Below, in pieces: positions 6,432 to 53,215 of a DNA stretch of 57,314 bases (position 1 is the first letter of the stretch; each line of letters starts with the position of its first letter). A model generated the notes under the pieces. It saw nothing but the letters and a program-made list of their open reading frames with translations. It was not told the origin of the DNA and made no database searches. The DNA is from Bacteroidota bacterium (lineage in GTDB: Bacteria; Bacteroidota; Bacteroidia; UKL13-3). Where the stretch lies: contig JBKDBG010000105.1 in NCBI GenBank assembly GCA_046314755.1, positions 1 through 57,314 of the forward strand. The letters run 5' to 3'. The position numbers and the translations under genes are program-made.

Positions 6432-8960
6432 ATGAATAAGATTGTTTGTGTAATGCTTTTAGCATTTGCTTTTCCTTTTATGCTTAAGGCACAACAAACC
6501 GTGGTAAAAGGAAAAATAACCGAACGTGGTAAGAATGAACCCATGCCTTTTGTGAGCGTGGCGTTTAAAGGTACTACCATAGGAACCACTACCGATTTTG
6601 ATGGAAATTATGAATTAAAAACTACCCAGCCGGTTGATTCGGTTGTGTTTTCGTTTATTGGTTTCGTTACCCAAACCAAAAAAATAAAGCGTGGTGAAGT
6701 AAACGTGTTTGAAGTGAGAATGGAACCGGAGGCAAGAACCATGAAAGAGGCAGTTATTCGTCCGCGACAAAACCCTGCCATTCCCATTATGAACAAAGCT
6801 ATTGCCATGCGCAAGGCTAATAATTTTGCTAATCTTACCGCATACGAGTTTGATAGTTACAATAAAACAGATGTATCACTCAACAATATTTCCGATAAAT
6901 TAAAAAACAACAAACTGCTTAAGCCCTTAAAACCGTTGTTTGACACCACCAACCAAATGCGGAATGAAGATGGAAAATACATTGTTCCCATTTTTATCAG
7001 CGAAACCCAATCAAGGTATTTTTACCATGCCAATCCTGCAAAAAGCAAAGAAATAATTAAGGCGAATAACTTAATTGGTTTTGGTGTGAAAGAAGGAAGT
7101 TATGTGGTTGATTTATTAGGTTCATCACTGATTCAATTTAACTTTAACGACAACTGGATGCGCTTTTTGGCCAAAGATTTTATTTCGCCAATTGCTGCCA
7201 ATGCCCAAAACTATTACTTCTATACCCTGCGCGATTCGGTTGATATTGACGGATTGAAATGTTATGAAATAAAATTTGAGTTAAGGCGTCCATCTGATTT
7301 AGGTTTTAATGGAACCGTTTGGGTAGCCGACAGTTCTTTTGCCATCAGGCGAATTATTGCCGAAATATCATCAACAGCAAACCTAAATTTTATTGAGCGT
7401 TTAAAGTTGCAGCAAGAGCAATTGCCTACTTCGGCCGGCCCGTGGATTCCGGTAAAAACGCGTGTGATTGTAGAATTGGCCAGAGTAACAGATAACACTA
7501 CCGGATTTGTAGCCAAAATGTATAGGGCAAACAACAATGTGTTGGTGAACAAACTTAAGCCTGATGGTTTTTTTGATGTGGCCATTGAACGCGAAGCTTA
7601 TGATTTGGAAAAGGACAGTGCATTTTGGCAAAGTGTTCGTCCGGAGCAATTAACAGCGGTAGACCAACAAATGTATAACATGATTGATTCGGTGAAAAAT
7701 TTACCCGTGGTAAAAACCTACACCGAAGTTATTCGTGTAATTACAGAAGGATTTTATCAAACGGATAAAATTGAGTTTGGTCCGTATATTTATATCGCCA
7801 ACTACAATAAGGTTGAAGGCTTACGTTTACGTGCAGGTTTTCGCACTTCGCAAAAGTTTAGTCAAACCTGGTTTTACAATGGTTATTTGGCTTATGGTTT
7901 TGCTGATGATAAAATAAAATATGGTTTTGGTGTAGATTACATCATCAACCCTAAACGTTGGACAACCCTTGGTATGTCTTACAAAAATGATTACGATATT
8001 TTAGGTGTTACCGATCCTTCATCGTCACCCATTCAGGGTTTTGGCTCAGGTGGCGGGTATACCTTAGCTACCTTAAACATGGGTGCTGCCAACTCACGCA
8101 TCAATCAAACCATTGATTATCGCCTCACTTTTTTAAAACAAATTCATAGAGATTGGACAGTTAGGTTAACGGCACAAAACACCTATTTTAAACCTTTAGG
8201 CGATTTTTACTTTGCCTACAAATTGGATGAAACACAACCCGAAACAGCTTCTAACCTAAGCCACGATTTTAGTTACACGGCTGTTGGTGTTGATTTTAGG
8301 TTTGCCTACAAAGAAGTATTAATGCCAAGAGGAATTAGGCGTATGCGTGTAAAGCTGGCAACGGCACCGGTTACAACCATAAGTTACACACGCGGTATAC
8401 AAGGTGCAGCAGGTGGCGATTTTAGTTTTGATAAAATACAAATTAACTTCAACCAACATATTACAACGGGTGTTTTAGGCAATGCCGATTATAACATTAC
8501 AGCCGGAAAAATATATGGCCAATTGCCTTATCCAATGCTTGAAGTAATGCGTGGAAACAACACGGTTATTTATTCCGACAACAATTTTAGTTTAATGAAT
8601 TTGTATGAATTTGTTGCAGATGAATACATGCACTTTTGGTATGTGCAACATTTTGAAGGTTTGTTTTTCAACCGAATTCCGGTGGTAAAAAATTGGAAGC
8701 TGCGCAACTATGCTTTAATTAAAGGTGCTTACGGACATTTAACCAATGAAAACAAAGCGCTTATTCCTCAGCGCAACATTGGCGGAAAAGAGCTGCTTCC
8801 TATTTATGAATTTAAAAACGAACCTTATTTGGAAGTAGGCTACGGCATTGAAAACATTTTTAGGTTTGTAACCTTGGGAGCTGTTCATCGCCTTACCTAT
8901 TTAAACAATAAAGATGTACGCAGTTGGGGCATTAATGTTGGGTTGTTGTTTCAGTTTTAA
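6432..8960 (+). CDS. Outer-membrane protein, carboxypeptidase-regulatory-like N-terminal domain + DUF5686-type barrel
   Basis: Signal peptide; VKGKITE..EPMPFVSV..GTTTDFDGNY..FSFIGF; YNKVEGLRLR; PYLEVGYGIENIF; C-terminal Phe. Confidence 0.85.
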   Translation: MNKIVCVMLLAFAFPFMLKAQQTVVKGKITERGKNEPMPFVSVAFKGTTIGTTTDFDGNYELKTTQPVDSVVFSFIGFVTQTKKIKRGEVNVFEVRMEPEARTMKEAVIRPRQNPAIPIMNKAIAMRKANNFANLTAYEFDSYNKTDVSLNNISDKLKNNKLLKPLKPLFDTTNQMRNEDGKYIVPIFISETQSRYFYHANPAKSKEIIKANNLIGFGVKEGSYVVDLLGSSLIQFNFNDNWMRFLAKDFISPIAANAQNYYFYTLRDSVDIDGLKCYEIKFELRRPSDLGFNGTVWVADSSFAIRRIIAEISSTANLNFIERLKLQQEQLPTSAGPWIPVKTRVIVELARVTDNTTGFVAKMYRANNNVLVNKLKPDGFFDVAIEREAYDLEKDSAFWQSVRPEQLTAVDQQMYNMIDSVKNLPVVKTYTEVIRVITEGFYQTDKIEFGPYIYIANYNKVEGLRLRAGFRTSQKFSQTWFYNGYLAYGFADDKIKYGFGVDYIINPKRWTTLGMSYKNDYDILGVTDPSSSPIQGFGSGGGYTLATLNMGAANSRINQTIDYRLTFLKQIHRDWTVRLTAQNTYFKPLGDFYFAYKLDETQPETASNLSHDFSYTAVGVDFRFAYKEVLMPRGIRRMRVKLATAPVTTISYTRGIQGAAGGDFSFDKIQINFNQHITTGVLGNADYNITAGKIYGQLPYPMLEVMRGNNTVIYSDNNFSLMNLYEFVADEYMHFWYVQHFEGLFFNRIPVVKNWKLRNYALIKGAYGHLTNENKALIPQRNIGGKELLPIYEFKNEPYLEVGYGIENIFRFVTLGAVHRLTYLNNKDVRSWGINVGLLFQF

Positions 8961-51780: not shown

Positions 51781-52518
51781 TTATAAACCTCGGCTTTCTC
51801 CCGTTTCAACCCGTTTCTGACGTTCTTGTTCAAACCAGTTTTCAAATGCCGTGGCTGCCTCTTCGGTAAAGTGGCTTAAATTAAAACGCGTGTACTTGAT
51901 ATTTTTACCTTTTGCCATAAACAGGTTTTCATAATGGGTGCGCACATTTTTAAGTAGGCTGTCGGCATTCGGATTTGCATGTACATTTTGATCAATTATT
52001 TCAGGGGTAATTTGTAAATGCTCCAATTGAAGCAACGTAAAATCAAATAACTCATCGCTATCTGTTTTGAAATTAATTGCTCCGCCCGGCTTAAGAATTT
52101 TTTGATACAAACGCAAAAAGCGTGTATGTGTTAAACGATGTTTGGCACTGCGCATTCTTGGAAAAGGGTCAGGAAAGGTAATCCATATTTCATCTACTTC
52201 TCCGGCATCAAACAACACATCAATTTTGTGCATCACCGCACGCATAAAAGCAACATTACTCATGTTATTGTCGATCGCTTTTTGTGCACCAACCCACATC
52301 CGATTGCTTTTGATGTCAATGCCGATAAAGTTTTTATTGGGGAAGTTTTGGGCCAATGCAACCGAATATTCACCTTTACCGCAACCCAGTTCTAATACAA
52401 TAGGGTTATTGTTATGAAACACTTCTTGCTTCCATTTGCCTTTTAAATCATAGGCAAAATCAAAGGTGTTTGAAAAATTTGCAAAGGCTTCAAATCGTTG
52501 TAATTTCTTCTTTCCCAT
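51781..52518 (-). CDS. trmB: tRNA (guanine-N7)-methyltransferase
   Basis: LELGCGKGEY, FIGIDIK, IWITFPDP, HRLT, FKTD, T.YE. Confidence 0.96.
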   Translation of the reverse strand: MGKKKLQRFEAFANFSNTFDFAYDLKGKWKQEVFHNNNPIVLELGCGKGEYSVALAQNFPNKNFIGIDIKSNRMWVGAQKAIDNNMSNVAFMRAVMHKIDVLFDAGEVDEIWITFPDPFPRMRSAKHRLTHTRFLRLYQKILKPGGAINFKTDSDELFDFTLLQLEHLQITPEIIDQNVHANPNADSLLKNVRTHYENLFMAKGKNIKYTRFNLSHFTEEAATAFENWFEQERQKRVETGESRGL

Positions 52519-52655
52519 ACCGTATTAAGGCAAAAATAAGCGGCCGCGAAAGTAGGATAATTACTTAAAAATCAAAGTATAGTTGAAAGAAAAATCATTG
52601 CTTCATATACATTTGGAAGCGCAATGGAATTAGGCGTTTATGGGCTTTTAAAAGA

Positions 52656-52804
52656 TTTTGTAGTCTCGACAGGAATCGATCCCGCTTGAGGCGGGACAAA
52701 AGTTTAGGAAAGCAAAAAAGGTGAGAATATTTTGTAGTCTCGACAGGAATCGATCCCGCTTGAGGCGGGACAAAAGTTTAGGGAAACAAAAAAAGGTGAG
52801 AATG
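52656..52804 (-). repeat. Two tandem 74/75-nt units: tRNA-Arg 3' half interrupted by a 17-nt palindrome, plus trailer
   Basis: Units 52656-52729 and 52730-52804 each read ttttgtagtctcgacaggaatcga-TCCCGCTTGAGGCGGGA-caaaagtttagg... versus tRNA ttttgtagtctcgacaggaatcga-acctgtat-caaatgtttagg. Confidence 0.95.
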
Positions 52805-52809
52805 TTTTG

Positions 52810-52881
52810 TAGTCTCGACAGGAATCGAACCTGTATCAAATGTTTAGGAAACATCTATTCTATCCATTGAACTACGAGACC
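52810..52881 (-). tRNA. tRNA-Arg(CCT)
   Basis: GGTCTCGTAGTTCAATGGATAGAATAGATGTTTCCTAAACATTTGATACAGGTTCGATTCCTGTCGAGACTA: acceptor GGTCTCG/CGAGACT, anticodon loop TTCCTAA, T arm ACAGG-TTCGATT-CCTGT; CCA not encoded. Confidence 0.96.
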
Positions 52882-52889
52882 ATTTTGTG

Positions 52890-52933
52890 TCTATTCTATC
52901 CTCCCGATAGCTATCGGGAGAACTACGAGACCA
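52890..52933 (-). repeat. tRNA-Arg 5' fragment with an 18-nt perfect palindrome in the D-loop
   Basis: tctattctatcc-TCCCGATAGCTATCGGGA-gaactacgagacca versus tRNA tctattctatcc-att-gaactacgagacca. Confidence 0.95.
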
Positions 52934-53142
52934 ATTGTTTTTTCGAGGTGCAATTTAAATTTTATTCTATCAGGAATAAAAATCATTCGTAAAAAAATTG
53001 ATGTAATTTTATGAATAAGGTAAAACCAATCGGGTTGTTTTAAGAAGATAGCGTGTGCCATTTGCCATAAAAGTATCAATAAGAACTTTAATTATATTGC
53101 TAATTATATTGTTTTGATTGCATGGCAATAAGAATGCAATAA

Positions 53143-53215
53143 CGACAGGAATCGATCCCGCTTAGGGCGGGACTATTCTATCCTCCCGATAGCTATCGGG
53201 AGAACCACGAGACCA
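53143..53215 (-). pseudogene. tRNA-Arg pseudogene carrying both palindromes, anticodon arm deleted
   Basis: cgacaggaatcga-TCCCGCTTAGGGCGGGA-ctattctatcc-TCCCGATAGCTATCGGGA-gaaccacgagacca. Confidence 0.9.

What the first reader, a model, noticed from the sequence alone, without database searches (positions are those of the whole stretch)
52656..53215. tRNA-Arg surrounded by four broken copies of itself, each patched at fixed tRNA positions by TCCCG...CGGGA palindromes
Seen: five short palindromes with identical TCCCG/CGGGA ends, all inside tRNA-derived sequence; I saw none elsewhere in the window. Type A (17 nt; 52680-52696, 52754-52770, 53156-53172) always abuts TCGATTCC of the T-loop. It replaces 8 nt (ATACAGGT) in two copies and 26 nt including the anticodon in the third, so one junction is fixed and the other varies. 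Type B (18 nt perfect palindrome TCCCGATAGCTATCGGGA; 52902-52919, 53184-53201) replaces AAT in the D-loop in both copies. No target-site duplications; one intact tRNA survives. Established: REP-type palindromes are spread by HUH (RAYT/TnpA-REP) enzymes acting on ssDNA hairpins without target duplication. Inference: a trans-mobilised miniature palindrome family that targets tRNA loops and is coupled to local duplication of the gene; no mobilising enzyme is encoded in this window.
Basis: partly seen in the sequence, partly recalled or inferred. Interest (0 to 1): 0.8.

Follow-up and report, generated by a model that had tools for sequence, protein, structure and literature searches.

The report
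Hairpin-plugged tRNA fragments beside tRNA-Arg
A working tRNA gene is surrounded by dead partial copies of itself, each with one loop overwritten by a small GC-rich hairpin; the same pattern occurs at many tRNA genes across the Bacteroidota, often next to a tiny nuclease gene, which points to an apparently undescribed selfish element that lives on tRNA genes.

Summary
In detail: five TCCCG...CGGGA palindromes (0.03 expected) lie in four broken copies of tRNA-Arg(CCT) around one intact gene. Contigs from three independent metagenome runs reproduce the pieces, and two congeners have an empty orthologous locus. It is one case of a wide phenomenon. In this genome 8 of 26 tRNA genes carry 16 flanking pseudo-copies, all 16 with a hairpin block in the D-loop or T-arm. 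The exact 18-mer occurs in many Bacteroidota orders. In 77 of 77 resolvable D-loop sites it replaces exactly 3 nt. One genome holds a full-length tRNA-Arg copy whose only lesion is that replacement. Small GIY-YIG nuclease genes sit between the live tRNA and a plugged fragment, on either side and sometimes in tandem arrays: 22 of 92 D-loop sites against 1 of 84 control sites. A relative with the identical tRNA-Arg has such a cassette. The window's array has no nuclease gene, so I read it as ORF-less footprints. The proposed mechanism, nuclease-driven break repair that spreads cleavage-resistant plugged copies, is inferred and not shown. Most copies of the 18-mer lie outside tRNA contexts and remain unexplained.

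The parts
52809..52881 (-). Intact tRNA-Arg(CCT), the live gene
   Evidence: ARAGORN. Rfam tRNA 66.9 bits, E 4.5e-14, full model. Identical by eye to the tRNA-Arg(CCT) of relative G018 (L210).
52734..52808 (-). Proximal downstream 3' pseudo-copy unit: spacer, remnant of anticodon loop and 3' stem, 17-nt hairpin (52754-52770) replacing 8 nt of variable loop and 5' T-stem, then T-loop to the 3' end (52734-52753)
   Evidence: 20-nt exact match to tRNA positions 54-73.
52660..52733 (-). Distal downstream 3' pseudo-copy unit (74-nt tandem period) with the same 17-nt hairpin (52680-52696)
   Evidence: Folds as hairpin plus a short stem, DNA dG -9.2, z -3.1. Contigs of three runs cover 52656-52753.
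52890..52940 (-). Upstream 5' pseudo-copy: short leader, tRNA positions 1-13, 18-nt perfect palindrome (52902-52919) in place of D-loop AAT, then about 12 further tRNA nt (D-loop GG to the start of the anticodon stem)
   Evidence: In run X1 a minor contig skips 52890-52940, essentially this unit (depth 15 against about 45, side 30, borderline). The same Arg-type plugged fragment precedes tRNA-Arg in 9 other species.
52945..52962 (-). Promoter-like TAnnTTG-CA box upstream of the 5' pseudo-copy (judged by eye only)
   Evidence: Similar boxes precede the plugged 5' copies or live tRNAs at tRNA-Phe, -His, -Ala and -Asp in G000 and in L116 and L275. Not tested by any tool; the consensus is recalled.
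53143..53214 (-). Far-upstream double-plugged pseudo-tRNA: positions 1-13, 18-nt palindrome (53184-53201) in the D-loop, 11 further D-arm nt, a 17-nt hairpin (53156-53172) replacing 26 nt (anticodon arm, variable loop, 5' T-stem), T-loop and 3' T-stem, truncated acceptor
   Evidence: Folds into two hairpins, DNA dG -16.6, z -4.5, 0 of 200 shuffles as stable. Covered without differences by a 296-nt contig of run X3 and 206-nt contigs of X1 and X2. The same double-plugged architecture is seen in L205 and L337.

Best explanation
The locus is a live tRNA-Arg(CCT) gene that has gained, in this lineage, four dead fragments of itself: two 3' fragments downstream and two 5' fragments upstream. Each is 'plugged' by a GC-rich hairpin that overwrites part of the D-loop, anticodon arm or T-arm. 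It is an ORF-less example of a Bacteroidota-wide class of tRNA-gene parasites. The complete form is a small GIY-YIG nuclease gene lying inside the tRNA transcription unit, between the live tRNA and a hairpin-plugged displaced fragment. The order is either plugged 5' fragment, nuclease, live tRNA, or live tRNA, nuclease, plugged 3' fragment. Proposed mechanism (inferred, by analogy with the GIY-YIG homing endonuclease SegB): the nuclease breaks tRNA-gene DNA at or near the loop-coding region. Repair by homologous or homeologous recombination then copies a donor in which that region is interrupted by the hairpin. This duplicates part of the gene, keeps one copy intact, and can expand into tandem arrays. 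The hairpin makes the displaced fragment non-functional and, I propose, uncuttable. Conserved D-arm and T-arm flanks guide its transfer between tRNA genes, which would explain why exactly 3 nt are always replaced. Loss of the nuclease gene leaves solo plugged fragments like those in the window. Shown: the anatomy, the distribution, the 3-nt rule and the physical linkage to GIY-YIG genes. Inferred: cleavage, resistance and direction of transfer.
For: Genome-wide in G000, 8 of 26 tRNA genes have flanking pseudo-copies, 16 in all, and all 16 carry a hairpin block (one degenerate). All 3 small GIY-YIG genes of G000 lie between a tRNA with its terminator and a plugged 3' copy; tRNA-Asp has a tandem array. 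The orthologous Arg locus is empty in G001 and G002. G018 has the identical tRNA-Arg(CCT) followed by a GIY-YIG gene and a 3' copy whose hairpin abuts ATTCGATTCC, the same junction as in the window. In 4 of 4 displayed tRNA-associated GIY-YIG loci from genomes without the exact 18-mer, the pseudo-copies also have hairpin-replaced D-loops, anticodon arms or T-arms. Of 92 D-loop/18-mer sites in 80 loci of many genera, 69 have a live same-strand tRNA within 400 nt downstream; in 57 of those 69 the 13-nt 5' arm is identical to that tRNA, and 12 tRNA species are involved. Short GIY-YIG frames lie within 3-138 nt of 22 of those 92 sites, against 1 of 84 sites in unselected 18-mer loci. The order plugged 5' copy, GIY-YIG, live tRNA is seen in 13 loci, including a 3x tandem 547-nt unit. 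In 77 of 77 resolvable sites exactly 3 nt (8 different triplets) are replaced. A GC palindrome follows the stop codon within about 25 nt in 9 of 16 short GIY-YIG ORFs listed, and orthologues share it. SegB precedent: nuclease activity plus recombination proteins are required for tandem amplification of a tRNA+segB unit (PMC13096335, passages read).
Against: No GIY-YIG gene or remnant lies in the window (best local E 0.13; none at E<=0.01 in the whole window), nor within 2 kb of the 9 other Arg-type plugged 5' copies. Only 22 of 92 D-loop sites and 3 of 8 affected G000 tRNA genes have one within 1-1.5 kb. Most copies of the 18-mer (about 80 of 85 unselected sites) are not in tRNA contexts, and only 1 of 84 has a GIY-YIG frame nearby, so the palindrome spreads in ways this model does not explain. 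GIY-YIG genes occur in 40 of 41 relatives regardless of the 18-mer. The subfamily found next to 18-mer plugs is in 6 of 11 genomes with the 18-mer but also in 3 of 30 without it. In L341 the 18-mer entered a full-length tRNA copy with no nuclease gene within 2 kb. The proteins are catalytic domain only (Pfam covers residues 2-75 of 94), unlike characterised site-specific Seg and I-TevI enzymes. The model also leaves the live tRNA cuttable. No cleavage, transcript or transfer data exist.
Confidence: 0.5

Rival explanations
1. The hairpins are autonomous, very small mobile palindromes, moved in trans by an unidentified enzyme. They insert into the loops of any hairpin-forming DNA. Redundant tRNA copies are merely tolerated landing sites, which then decay by deletion. 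The GIY-YIG genes are separate tRNA-linked selfish genes that only supply the redundant copies, or are incidental.
For: The exact 18-mer is patchy among relatives (11 of 41 genomes; 3 of 16 in the genus besides G000), yet identical across several Bacteroidota orders. In G027 and G021 it sits in loops of other hairpin repeats, and elsewhere in simple tandem repeats. L341 is a clean filled/empty pair in a full-length tRNA copy with no nuclease gene nearby. Variation falls mostly at the central loop position (26 of 65 mismatched letters), and five symmetric double-substitution variants (11 sites) preserve pairing.
Against: All 16 of 16 pseudo-copies in G000 are plugged, and no unplugged fragment was seen. 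That outcome is hard to obtain from independent secondary hits. Hairpins of other sequences occupy the same positions in genomes that lack the 18-mer. GIY-YIG frames are enriched next to plugged tRNA fragments, 22 of 92 against 1 of 84. No candidate mobilising enzyme was identified.
Confidence: 0.3
2. The plugged fragments are functional RNA elements of the pre-tRNA transcript, such as leader or trailer structures that stabilise the transcript or the nuclease mRNA, or that control tRNA processing. They would then be kept by selection rather than by selfish spread.
For: 5' copies lie between a promoter-like box and the live tRNA, and 3' copies lie before the terminator (by eye). The architecture recurs at 12 tRNA species in many genera, 14-110 nt upstream. 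Stems are conserved while loops vary. The fragment arms match the local tRNA in each species inspected.
Against: The distribution is patchy even within the genus, and the orthologous locus is empty in two congeners. Copy number, extent and hairpin position vary from locus to locus. Many copies are truncated in ways that share no common fold. The far-upstream copy lies upstream of the promoter-like box.
Confidence: 0.1
3. One reading: REP-type palindromes spread by a RAYT/IS200-like HUH enzyme acting on single-stranded hairpins.
For: G000 has two Y1 transposase genes. The one on C43 is bracketed by two identical 20-nt hairpins with TCCCG/CGGGA ends. There are no target duplications.
Against: Y1 genes occur in 35 of 41 relatives with no relation to the 18-mer, and G019 (91% complete, about 22 sites) has none. 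Of the Y1 genes examined, several have their own nearby ~20-nt hairpins of different sequence, paired on both sides in 2 of 6 scanned loci, as repeated units upstream on G000 C43, and by eye on both sides in L214; in L214 the 18-mer lies beyond that REP. No conserved flanking tetranucleotide is evident in the 85 flanks (by eye).
Confidence: 0.04
4. Remnants of integrase-mediated integration and excision of genomic islands at the tRNA 3' end (att-site duplications).
For: Partial 3' tRNA copies downstream of a tRNA are the classic signature (general knowledge). Partial tRNA-Arg matches 2.4 kb and 25 kb from the tRNA exist in G005 and G003 (not followed up).
Against: No tyrosine recombinase lies on the window's contig; the only two in G000 are on C45 and C77. 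The fragments are immediately adjacent with 74-nt periodicity. 5' fragments upstream are not produced by 3'-end integration. The hairpin replacement inside the copies is not explained.
Confidence: 0.02
5. Assembly artefact of a repeat-rich draft genome.
For: G000 is a 122-contig draft, and several tRNAs sit at contig ends.
Against: Contigs from three runs of three studies reproduce the junctions with 0-1 differences, and the same architecture recurs in dozens of independent assemblies, including complete chromosomes.
Confidence: 0.01

Closest known systems
SegB, a free-standing GIY-YIG homing endonuclease in the tRNA gene cluster of T-even phages
   Same: It is a GIY-YIG nuclease gene embedded among tRNA genes. 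Its nuclease activity plus homologous recombination generates tandem repeat units of tRNA plus nuclease gene (PMC13096335, passages read; PMC2330249, abstract in listing). The arrays at G000 tRNA-Asp, L201, L212 and L275 look like such units.
   Different: The proteins here are 80-95 aa and catalytic domain only, and the host is a bacterial chromosome. The repeat unit ends inside the tRNA gene, so the copies are partial, and each partial copy has a loop overwritten by a hairpin. No such plug is described in the SegB passages I read. Cleavage is untested here.
REP/REPIN elements with RAYT transposases
   Same: Both are short GC-rich extragenic palindromes in many copies without target duplications, with a possible trans-acting enzyme (PMC3116915, passages read; PMC3733652, abstract only).
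   Different: The RAYTs of these genomes have other cognate REPs, and the 18-mer does not co-occur with Y1 genes. REPs are not known to me to replace exactly 3 nt at a fixed structural position of tRNA-derived sequence.
Small dispersed repeats of cyanobacteria (Elhai et al. 2008, Genome Res 18:1484)
   Same: As I recall them: 21-27-nt hairpin-forming repeats, patchy among relatives and nested inside other repeats, with no known enzyme.
   Different: The paper was not held, so this rests on recall and on citations. The phylum differs, and I recall neither linkage to tRNA gene fragments nor to a nuclease gene.
Mobile GC-rich palindromic clusters of fungal mitochondria (yeast GC clusters; GC-rich palindromes flanking Neurospora mitochondrial tRNA genes)
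   Same: These are small GC-rich hairpins in AT-rich genomes, with changes concentrated in loops (PMC4478555, passages read). That paper's reference list cites Yin et al. 1981 on conserved GC-rich palindromes flanking tRNA genes.
   Different: They are organellar, flank genes rather than overwriting loops of gene fragments, and have a dinucleotide target duplication in yeast. The content of the 1981 paper is recalled, not read.
tRNA-targeting integrative elements (att duplication of the tRNA 3' end)
   Same: The element restores the tRNA gene by supplying a replacement segment and leaves a displaced partial copy.
   Different: No integrase is present. The cargo is a single ~90-aa nuclease gene or nothing. 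Both 5' and 3' versions exist. The displaced copy is hairpin-plugged.

Membership tests
Functional bacterial tRNA gene | Cloverleaf with anticodon, scored by tRNA models | tested here: met
   For 52809-52881 only: ARAGORN tRNA-Arg(CCT) and Rfam RF00005 at 66.9 bits against a gathering score of 29. None of the four fragments is called as a tRNA by either tool.
REP/RAYT (REPIN) system | The palindrome flanks a Y1 (HUH) RAYT gene as its cognate repeat | tested here: not met
   Hairpins of other sequence lie beside the Y1 genes: paired on both sides in 2 of 6 scanned loci, as repeated units upstream on G000 C43, and by eye in L214. The 18-mer appears near one Y1 gene only (L214), beyond its own REP.
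REP/RAYT (REPIN) system | The palindrome co-occurs with a RAYT gene across genomes | tested here: not met
   PF01797 is found in 35 of 41 relatives against the 18-mer in 11 of 41. G019 has about 22 sites and no Y1 match.
REP/RAYT (REPIN) system | Conserved tetranucleotide tag (GTAG or CGTC) at one end of the palindrome | tested here: not met
   The flanks of 85 sites are heterogeneous by eye; no formal count was made. The tag definition is taken from the abstract of PMC3733652.
Free-standing GIY-YIG homing endonuclease | GIY-YIG catalytic domain | tested here: met
   PF01541 at E 1.9e-12 for the G000 C51 protein. Three small genes score 47-64 bits. This applies to other loci; none is in the window.
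Free-standing GIY-YIG homing endonuclease | The gene lies at or next to its presumed target, with presence/absence polymorphism among relatives | tested here: met
   The genes are adjacent to tRNA genes. The Arg locus is empty in G001 and G002, cassette-bearing in G018 and ORF-less in G000.
Free-standing GIY-YIG homing endonuclease | Separate DNA-binding domain that gives site specificity (as in I-TevI and Seg proteins; recalled) | tested here: not met
   The proteins are 80-95 aa. Pfam covers residues 2-75 of 94, and NCBIfam matches only the N-terminal 32-40 residues of the intron-endonuclease model, below its cut-off.
Free-standing GIY-YIG homing endonuclease | Cleaves the nuclease-free allele and is copied into it by break repair | not testable with these tools
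   This needs biochemistry and genetics.
Integrase-type tRNA-targeting island | Tyrosine or serine recombinase next to the att duplication | tested here: not met
   PF00589 is found only on C45 and C77 of G000, not on the window's contig. The flanking ORFs are a PF02390-type methyltransferase and a weak GldL_N match. Serine recombinases were not searched.
Very small mobile repeats (SDR-like) | Hairpin repeat under 30 nt, dispersed, patchy among relatives and nested in other repeats | tested here: met
   The definition of the family is recalled because the paper was not held.

The most novel reading that the evidence does not exclude
Duplicative homing into essential tRNA genes. A domain-only GIY-YIG nuclease would cut the loop-coding DNA of a tRNA gene. 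The break would be repaired from a donor that carries the nuclease gene, a replacement segment that keeps the tRNA alive, and a displaced fragment whose cut site is sealed by a GC hairpin. The hairpin would act as a minimal, transferable immunity insert, the functional equivalent of an intron in collaborative homing. It would spread between tRNA genes through their conserved D-arm and T-arm flanks. That would explain the exact 3-nt replacement, the tandem arrays and the many ORF-less footprints across the Bacteroidota.
Probability: 0.3. Interest if true: 0.85.

Novelty: new variant of a known kind. Interest (0 to 1): 0.72.

Why it matters
If the reading is right, Bacteroidota carry a widespread and apparently undescribed class of selfish elements. 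These elements colonise essential single-copy tRNA genes without killing them and ride on the strong tRNA promoters. They also leave a recognisable scar, a tRNA fragment with a hairpin in place of 3 loop nucleotides. This bears on three practical matters. The first is genome annotation: these scars break assemblies at tRNA genes and yield spurious small ORFs. The second is tRNA gene evolution, through local amplification and pseudogene formation. The third is enzymology: domain-only GIY-YIG nucleases that may recognise tRNA-shaped or hairpin DNA. The strict 3-to-18-nt rule and the phylum-wide identity of the 18-mer make the biochemical question directly testable. I found no description of the motif or of the tRNA-linked GIY-YIG cassettes in the searchable library. 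Subscription journals and supplementary files were not searchable.

Tried and rejected
RAYT/HUH mobilisation was tested by co-occurrence and by the flanks of Y1 genes, and rejected.

Integrase att remnants were rejected.

Assembly artefact was rejected. Raw-read run X22 laid only 14 reads, all on the conserved tRNA, so it says nothing about the array.

A decayed GIY-YIG gene in the ~200-nt spacer or anywhere in the window was not found. Its first output was needlessly long and consists of noise hits with E >= 0.13.

No known RNA family besides tRNA fits: the two other Rfam hits are far below their gathering scores and are eukaryotic families.

The small ORFs overlapping the array (52648-52854 and 52891-53079, minus strand) have no Pfam match.

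Short-query BLAST and genome-wide 11-mers were poor ways to find fragments. The first missed most of them and the second was mostly chance hits. Local 9-mer diagonals worked.

A first regex for GIY-YIG motifs missed known genes, including the G000 tRNA-Asp ones. It was replaced by a profile built from my own set, so the regex-based '17 of 92' is superseded by '22 of 92'.

I considered and dropped three further ideas. (a) That the hairpin loops retain original loop letters, as aligner placements suggest. The two 17-nt variants are 15 of 17 identical to each other, and one of them coexists with the anticodon-loop remnant. (b) Survivorship, meaning that only plugged duplicates persist. This would need unrealistically frequent insertion. 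(c) Archaeal-type spliced mini-introns. Most copies are truncated, and 3 nt would be missing after removal.

The co-occurrence of one GIY-YIG subfamily with the 18-mer is only suggestive (6 of 11 against 3 of 30; kin are not independent).

The Elhai 2008 paper was not held under its DOI or its PMC id. Supplementary files were not consulted.

Full report
**1. The observation**

The window holds exactly five TCCCG-N(5-10)-CGGGA palindromes, at 52680, 52754, 52902, 53156 and 53184. The expected number is 0.03, and 0 of 100 shuffles reach five. One tRNA gene is present, tRNA-Arg(CCT), at 52809-52881 on the minus strand.

Read on the minus strand, the live gene has four broken copies around it.
- Downstream there are two 74-nt tandem units. 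Each consists of a spacer, a remnant of the anticodon loop and 3' stem, a 17-nt hairpin in place of 8 nt (variable loop plus 5' T-stem), and then the T-loop through the 3' end.
- Directly upstream there is a 5' fragment: tRNA positions 1-13, an 18-nt perfect palindrome in place of the D-loop AAT, and about 12 further tRNA nucleotides.
- About 200 nt further upstream there is a near-complete pseudo-tRNA with the 18-mer in the D-loop and a 17-nt hairpin in place of 26 nt. Its acceptor stem is truncated.

There are no target duplications. The hairpins fold as expected: the double-plugged copy has a DNA dG of -16.6 kcal/mol, z -4.5.

**2. Not an artefact, and a derived state**

Logan contigs from three runs of three studies reproduce the pieces with 0-1 differences. 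One 296-nt contig spans 52907-53202. The copy number of the 74-nt unit cannot be resolved from such contigs. Run X1 also holds a minor contig that skips 52890-52940, essentially the 5' fragment, but the support is borderline (side 30).

In two genomes of the same genus (G001, G002) the tRNA-Arg(CCT) lies next to the same flanking methyltransferase gene. There it is a lone gene followed by an ordinary terminator hairpin, with no fragments. The array is therefore a lineage-specific gain.

**3. The same thing happens at other tRNA genes of this genome**

G000 has 122 contigs, 2.55 Mb and 37.5% GC, with 26 tRNA genes. Eight of them have flanking partial copies: Leu-TAG, Asn, Leu-CAA, Phe, Ala-GGC, Asp, His and Arg-CCT.
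- Seven 5' fragments lie upstream and nine 3' fragments lie downstream.
- All 16 carry a GC-rich hairpin block in the D-loop (5' fragments) or T-arm (3' fragments). One of them is degenerate.
- All 7 exact or one-variant copies of the 18-mer in G000 lie in such fragments.
- Of 26 TCCCG...CGGGA hairpins genome-wide, 13 are in tRNA fragments, 10 look like terminator stems and 3 are other (my reading of the flanks).

**4. A nuclease gene is physically linked**

All three small GIY-YIG genes of G000 lie between a tRNA with its terminator and a plugged 3' copy that repeats the same trailer and terminator (PF01541, 47-64 bits). At tRNA-Asp the unit of plugged 3' part, terminator and GIY-YIG is repeated twice, followed by a truncated third gene.

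In relative G018 the identical tRNA-Arg(CCT) is followed by a GIY-YIG gene and a 3' copy whose hairpin abuts ATTCGATTCC. This is the same junction as the window's 17-nt hairpin.

I fetched 20 small GIY-YIG loci from six genomes that lack the exact 18-mer.
- Seven held a tRNA, and six of those had several fragments of that tRNA around it.
- All four that I displayed had hairpin-replaced arms. These included two double-plugged upstream copies (D-loop plus anticodon arm, as in the window) and near-complete downstream pseudo-tRNAs whose anticodon arm is swapped for a hairpin.
- By my count about nine of the 20 loci carry GC palindromes of this type. In 9 of 16 short ORFs listed, one lies within about 25 nt after the stop codon. 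Orthologous genes share the same palindrome, although co-inheritance may explain that.

The window itself holds no GIY-YIG gene or remnant and no integrase; the only two in G000 are on other contigs.

**5. The 18-mer across the phylum**

The exact 18-mer, or its central G/A variant, is present in 11 of 41 relatives. That includes 3 of 16 other genomes of the genus and several other families. Matches per strand run up to about 25, and the reversed-pattern control gives 0.

A capped scan of one genome per species returned 120 stretches. Of the 80 listed, 79 carry names that I recognise as Bacteroidota (Flavobacteriales, Chitinophagales, Sphingobacteriales, Cytophagales, Bacteroidales), and one is labelled only 'uncultured bacterium'.

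By my reading of the rows, about 4-5 of the 85 sites are in or beside tRNA-like fragments. Many others sit inside simple tandem repeats or in loops of larger hairpins. In G027 and G021 it sits repeatedly in the loop of other dispersed hairpin repeats.

Among 220 sites within two substitutions of the 18-mer (about 3.6 Mb scanned), 176 are exact and 15 differ only at the central loop position. Five distinct symmetric double substitutions (11 sites) preserve pairing. The sampling was seeded on exact matches, which inflates the exact class.

The motif was not found in the searchable literature.

**6. The D-loop arrangement is a phylum-wide architecture with a strict rule**

The census below covers 92 sites in 80 loci.
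- 69 have a live same-strand tRNA within 400 nt downstream.
- In 57 of those 69, the 13-nt 5' arm is identical to that tRNA.
- Twelve tRNA species are involved.
- 10 of the 23 exceptions lie within 200 nt of the end of the fetched DNA.

I then added nine Arg-type loci. In each that I inspected, the fragment's arm matches the local tRNA's own acceptor sequence. Across the combined set, 77 of 103 sites could be resolved against a nearby live tRNA.
- In 77 of 77 the palindrome replaces exactly three nucleotides: GTT 50, GCT 7, AAT 6, GTC 5, AAC 4, GAT 2, ATT 2, GGT 1.
- In 76 of 77, uninterrupted identity 3' of the palindrome ends by tRNA position 38, and in 72 of these by position 32.
- The exception, L341, is a full-length second tRNA-Arg(CCT). 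It is identical to the live copy at all 70 other positions, with AAT replaced by the 18-mer. This is a clean filled/empty pair.

The flanks were part of the search pattern, so position was preselected. The length of the replaced stretch was not.

**7. A mirror-image cassette**

A profile built from my GIY-YIG set finds short GIY-YIG frames within 3-138 nt of 22 of the 92 D-loop sites. In unselected 18-mer loci the figure is 1 of 84 sites.

In 13 loci the order is plugged 5' fragment, GIY-YIG on the same strand, live tRNA (eight at Asn, four at Phe, one at Met; my reading). In L116 a promoter-like box precedes the plugged fragment, and the ORF ends 11 nt before the live tRNA. In L275 a 547-nt unit of promoter region, plugged fragment and ORF occurs three times before the live tRNA-Phe. 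The nuclease gene can therefore sit on either side of the tRNA, always between the live gene and a plugged displaced fragment, inside the tRNA transcription unit. That last point is inferred from sequence; no RNA data were obtained.

**8.

Y1 (HUH) transposase matches occur in 35 of 41 relatives, independent of the 18-mer. G019 has about 22 sites and no Y1 match. Several of the Y1 genes examined have their own nearby ~20-nt hairpins of different sequence. These are paired on both sides in 2 of 6 scanned loci and appear as repeated units upstream on G000 C43. In L214 they lie on both sides by eye, and the 18-mer there lies beyond the RAYT's own REP. The RAYT idea is not supported.

GIY-YIG genes as a family are in 40 of 41 relatives. 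The subfamily found next to 18-mer plugs gives full-length matches of at least 70 bits in 6 of 11 genomes with the 18-mer and in 3 of 30 without it. That is suggestive only.

**9. How it most likely works**

*Shown.* The evidence establishes the anatomy, the derived state, the genome-wide and phylum-wide recurrence, the 3-nt rule, the entry of the palindrome into an intact tRNA copy, and the physical linkage to GIY-YIG genes and their tandem arrays.

*Established elsewhere.* The GIY-YIG endonuclease SegB lies among phage tRNA genes. Through its nuclease activity and recombination proteins, it drives tandem amplification of a tRNA+segB unit (PMC13096335, passages read).

*Inferred.* The steps of the proposed mechanism are as follows.
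- The small nucleases break tRNA-gene DNA near a loop-coding region.
- Repair from a donor allele copies the nuclease gene together with a plugged fragment, while one complete tRNA is retained.
- Unequal repair expands the arrays.
- The hairpin makes the displaced fragment inert and perhaps uncuttable.
- Conserved D-arm and T-arm flanks let a plug be copied between tRNA genes. This would give the invariant 3-nt replacement whatever the triplet.
- Deletion of the ORF leaves solo plugged fragments such as the four in the window.

*Points against.*
- Most plugged fragments have no nuclease gene nearby.
- Most copies of the 18-mer are outside tRNA contexts.
- The proteins have no DNA-binding domain.
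- The model leaves the live gene cuttable.
- Nothing has been tested biochemically.

The main rival is a truly autonomous mini-palindrome that hits any hairpin loop, with redundant tRNA copies as tolerated sinks. It explains the non-tRNA copies and L341 better. It explains less well why 16 of 16 fragments are plugged, and why hairpins of other sequence occupy the same positions in genomes without the 18-mer.

**10. Comparison with what is known, and novelty**

The closest known systems are these:
- SegB-type free-standing GIY-YIG endonucleases at tRNA genes.
- REP/RAYT elements. Membership was tested and not met.
- Cyanobacterial small dispersed repeats. This comparison is recalled, because the paper was not held.
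- Mitochondrial GC-rich palindromic clusters.
- tRNA-targeting integrative elements.

None combines a domain-only nuclease gene inside a tRNA transcription unit, partial duplication of the tRNA, and exact hairpin replacement of loop nucleotides. Searches for GIY-YIG with tRNA and Bacteroidetes or Flavobacteria terms, for tRNA pseudogenes with palindromes, and for the motif itself found no description. Subscription journals and supplements were not searchable.

I rate it a new variant of known kinds (homing-type nuclease cassettes and miniature palindromes), with a real chance that the combined mechanism is new.

Noticed in passing
G000 contig C43:6878-7819 (not in the window): A Y1/RAYT-type transposase gene (7228-7569) is bracketed by two identical 20-nt TCCCG...CGGGA hairpins set in A-run/T-run (terminator-like) context. 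It also has two REP-like hairpin units of another sequence just upstream.
   Followed up: partly
G000 contig C68:24494-25400 (not in the window): tRNA-Asp is followed by a tandem array of plugged 3' tRNA part, terminator and an 80-aa GIY-YIG gene, repeated twice, plus a third gene copy truncated after about 19 residues. The divergent neighbour tRNA-Ala(GGC) has its own plugged 3' copy.
   Followed up: partly
window 53041-53136 and 52890-52940: Metagenome contigs show minor variants. One skips 53041-53136 (runs X1 and X2) and one skips 52890-52940 (run X1), suggesting strain-level indel polymorphism in the array. The contigs carrying them also differ at several letters, so they may come from a related strain.
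   Followed up: no
window 51781-52518 (-): The gene immediately downstream of the tRNA array matches the PF02390 methyltransferase family (E 1.6e-32), which I recall as the TrmB tRNA m7G type. A tRNA-modifying enzyme next to a tRNA gene is probably coincidence.
   Followed up: no
G000 contigs C8, C62, C80, C103: Several tRNA genes lie within 7-228 nt of contig ends. This fits the idea that repeated plugged fragments or cassettes break the assembly at tRNA loci, so the count of affected tRNA genes (8 of 26) is probably a lower bound.
   Followed up: no
G005:C24:6200-6232 and G003:C104:45476-45507 (relatives): Exact 32-33-nt matches to the 5' part of tRNA-Arg(CCT) lie 2.4 kb and 25 kb from the live tRNA-Arg in two congeners. 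They could be ends of larger inserted elements.
   Followed up: no
L344 (Aequorivita MAG), about 6500-7230 in the orientation used: Tandem 255-nt units each contain a plugged Arg-like pseudo-tRNA and a second T-arm fragment with a different TCCCG hairpin. They are interrupted by a run of N before the live tRNA-Arg.
   Followed up: no
L008 (G001, after tRNA-His): The exact 18-mer forms the core of a terminator-like hairpin (A-run, TCC, 18-mer, GGA, T-run) directly after a live tRNA-His. The same palindrome can therefore also serve in, or mimic, a terminator.
   Followed up: no
Literature: PMC1564403, Slx1-cluster section: The GIY-YIG superfamily survey notes prokaryotic Slx1-like GIY-YIG domains fused to a TrmH-type methyltransferase, which modifies G18 of the tRNA D-loop. 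That is the nucleotide immediately 3' of where the 18-mer sits. It may be coincidence.
   Followed up: no
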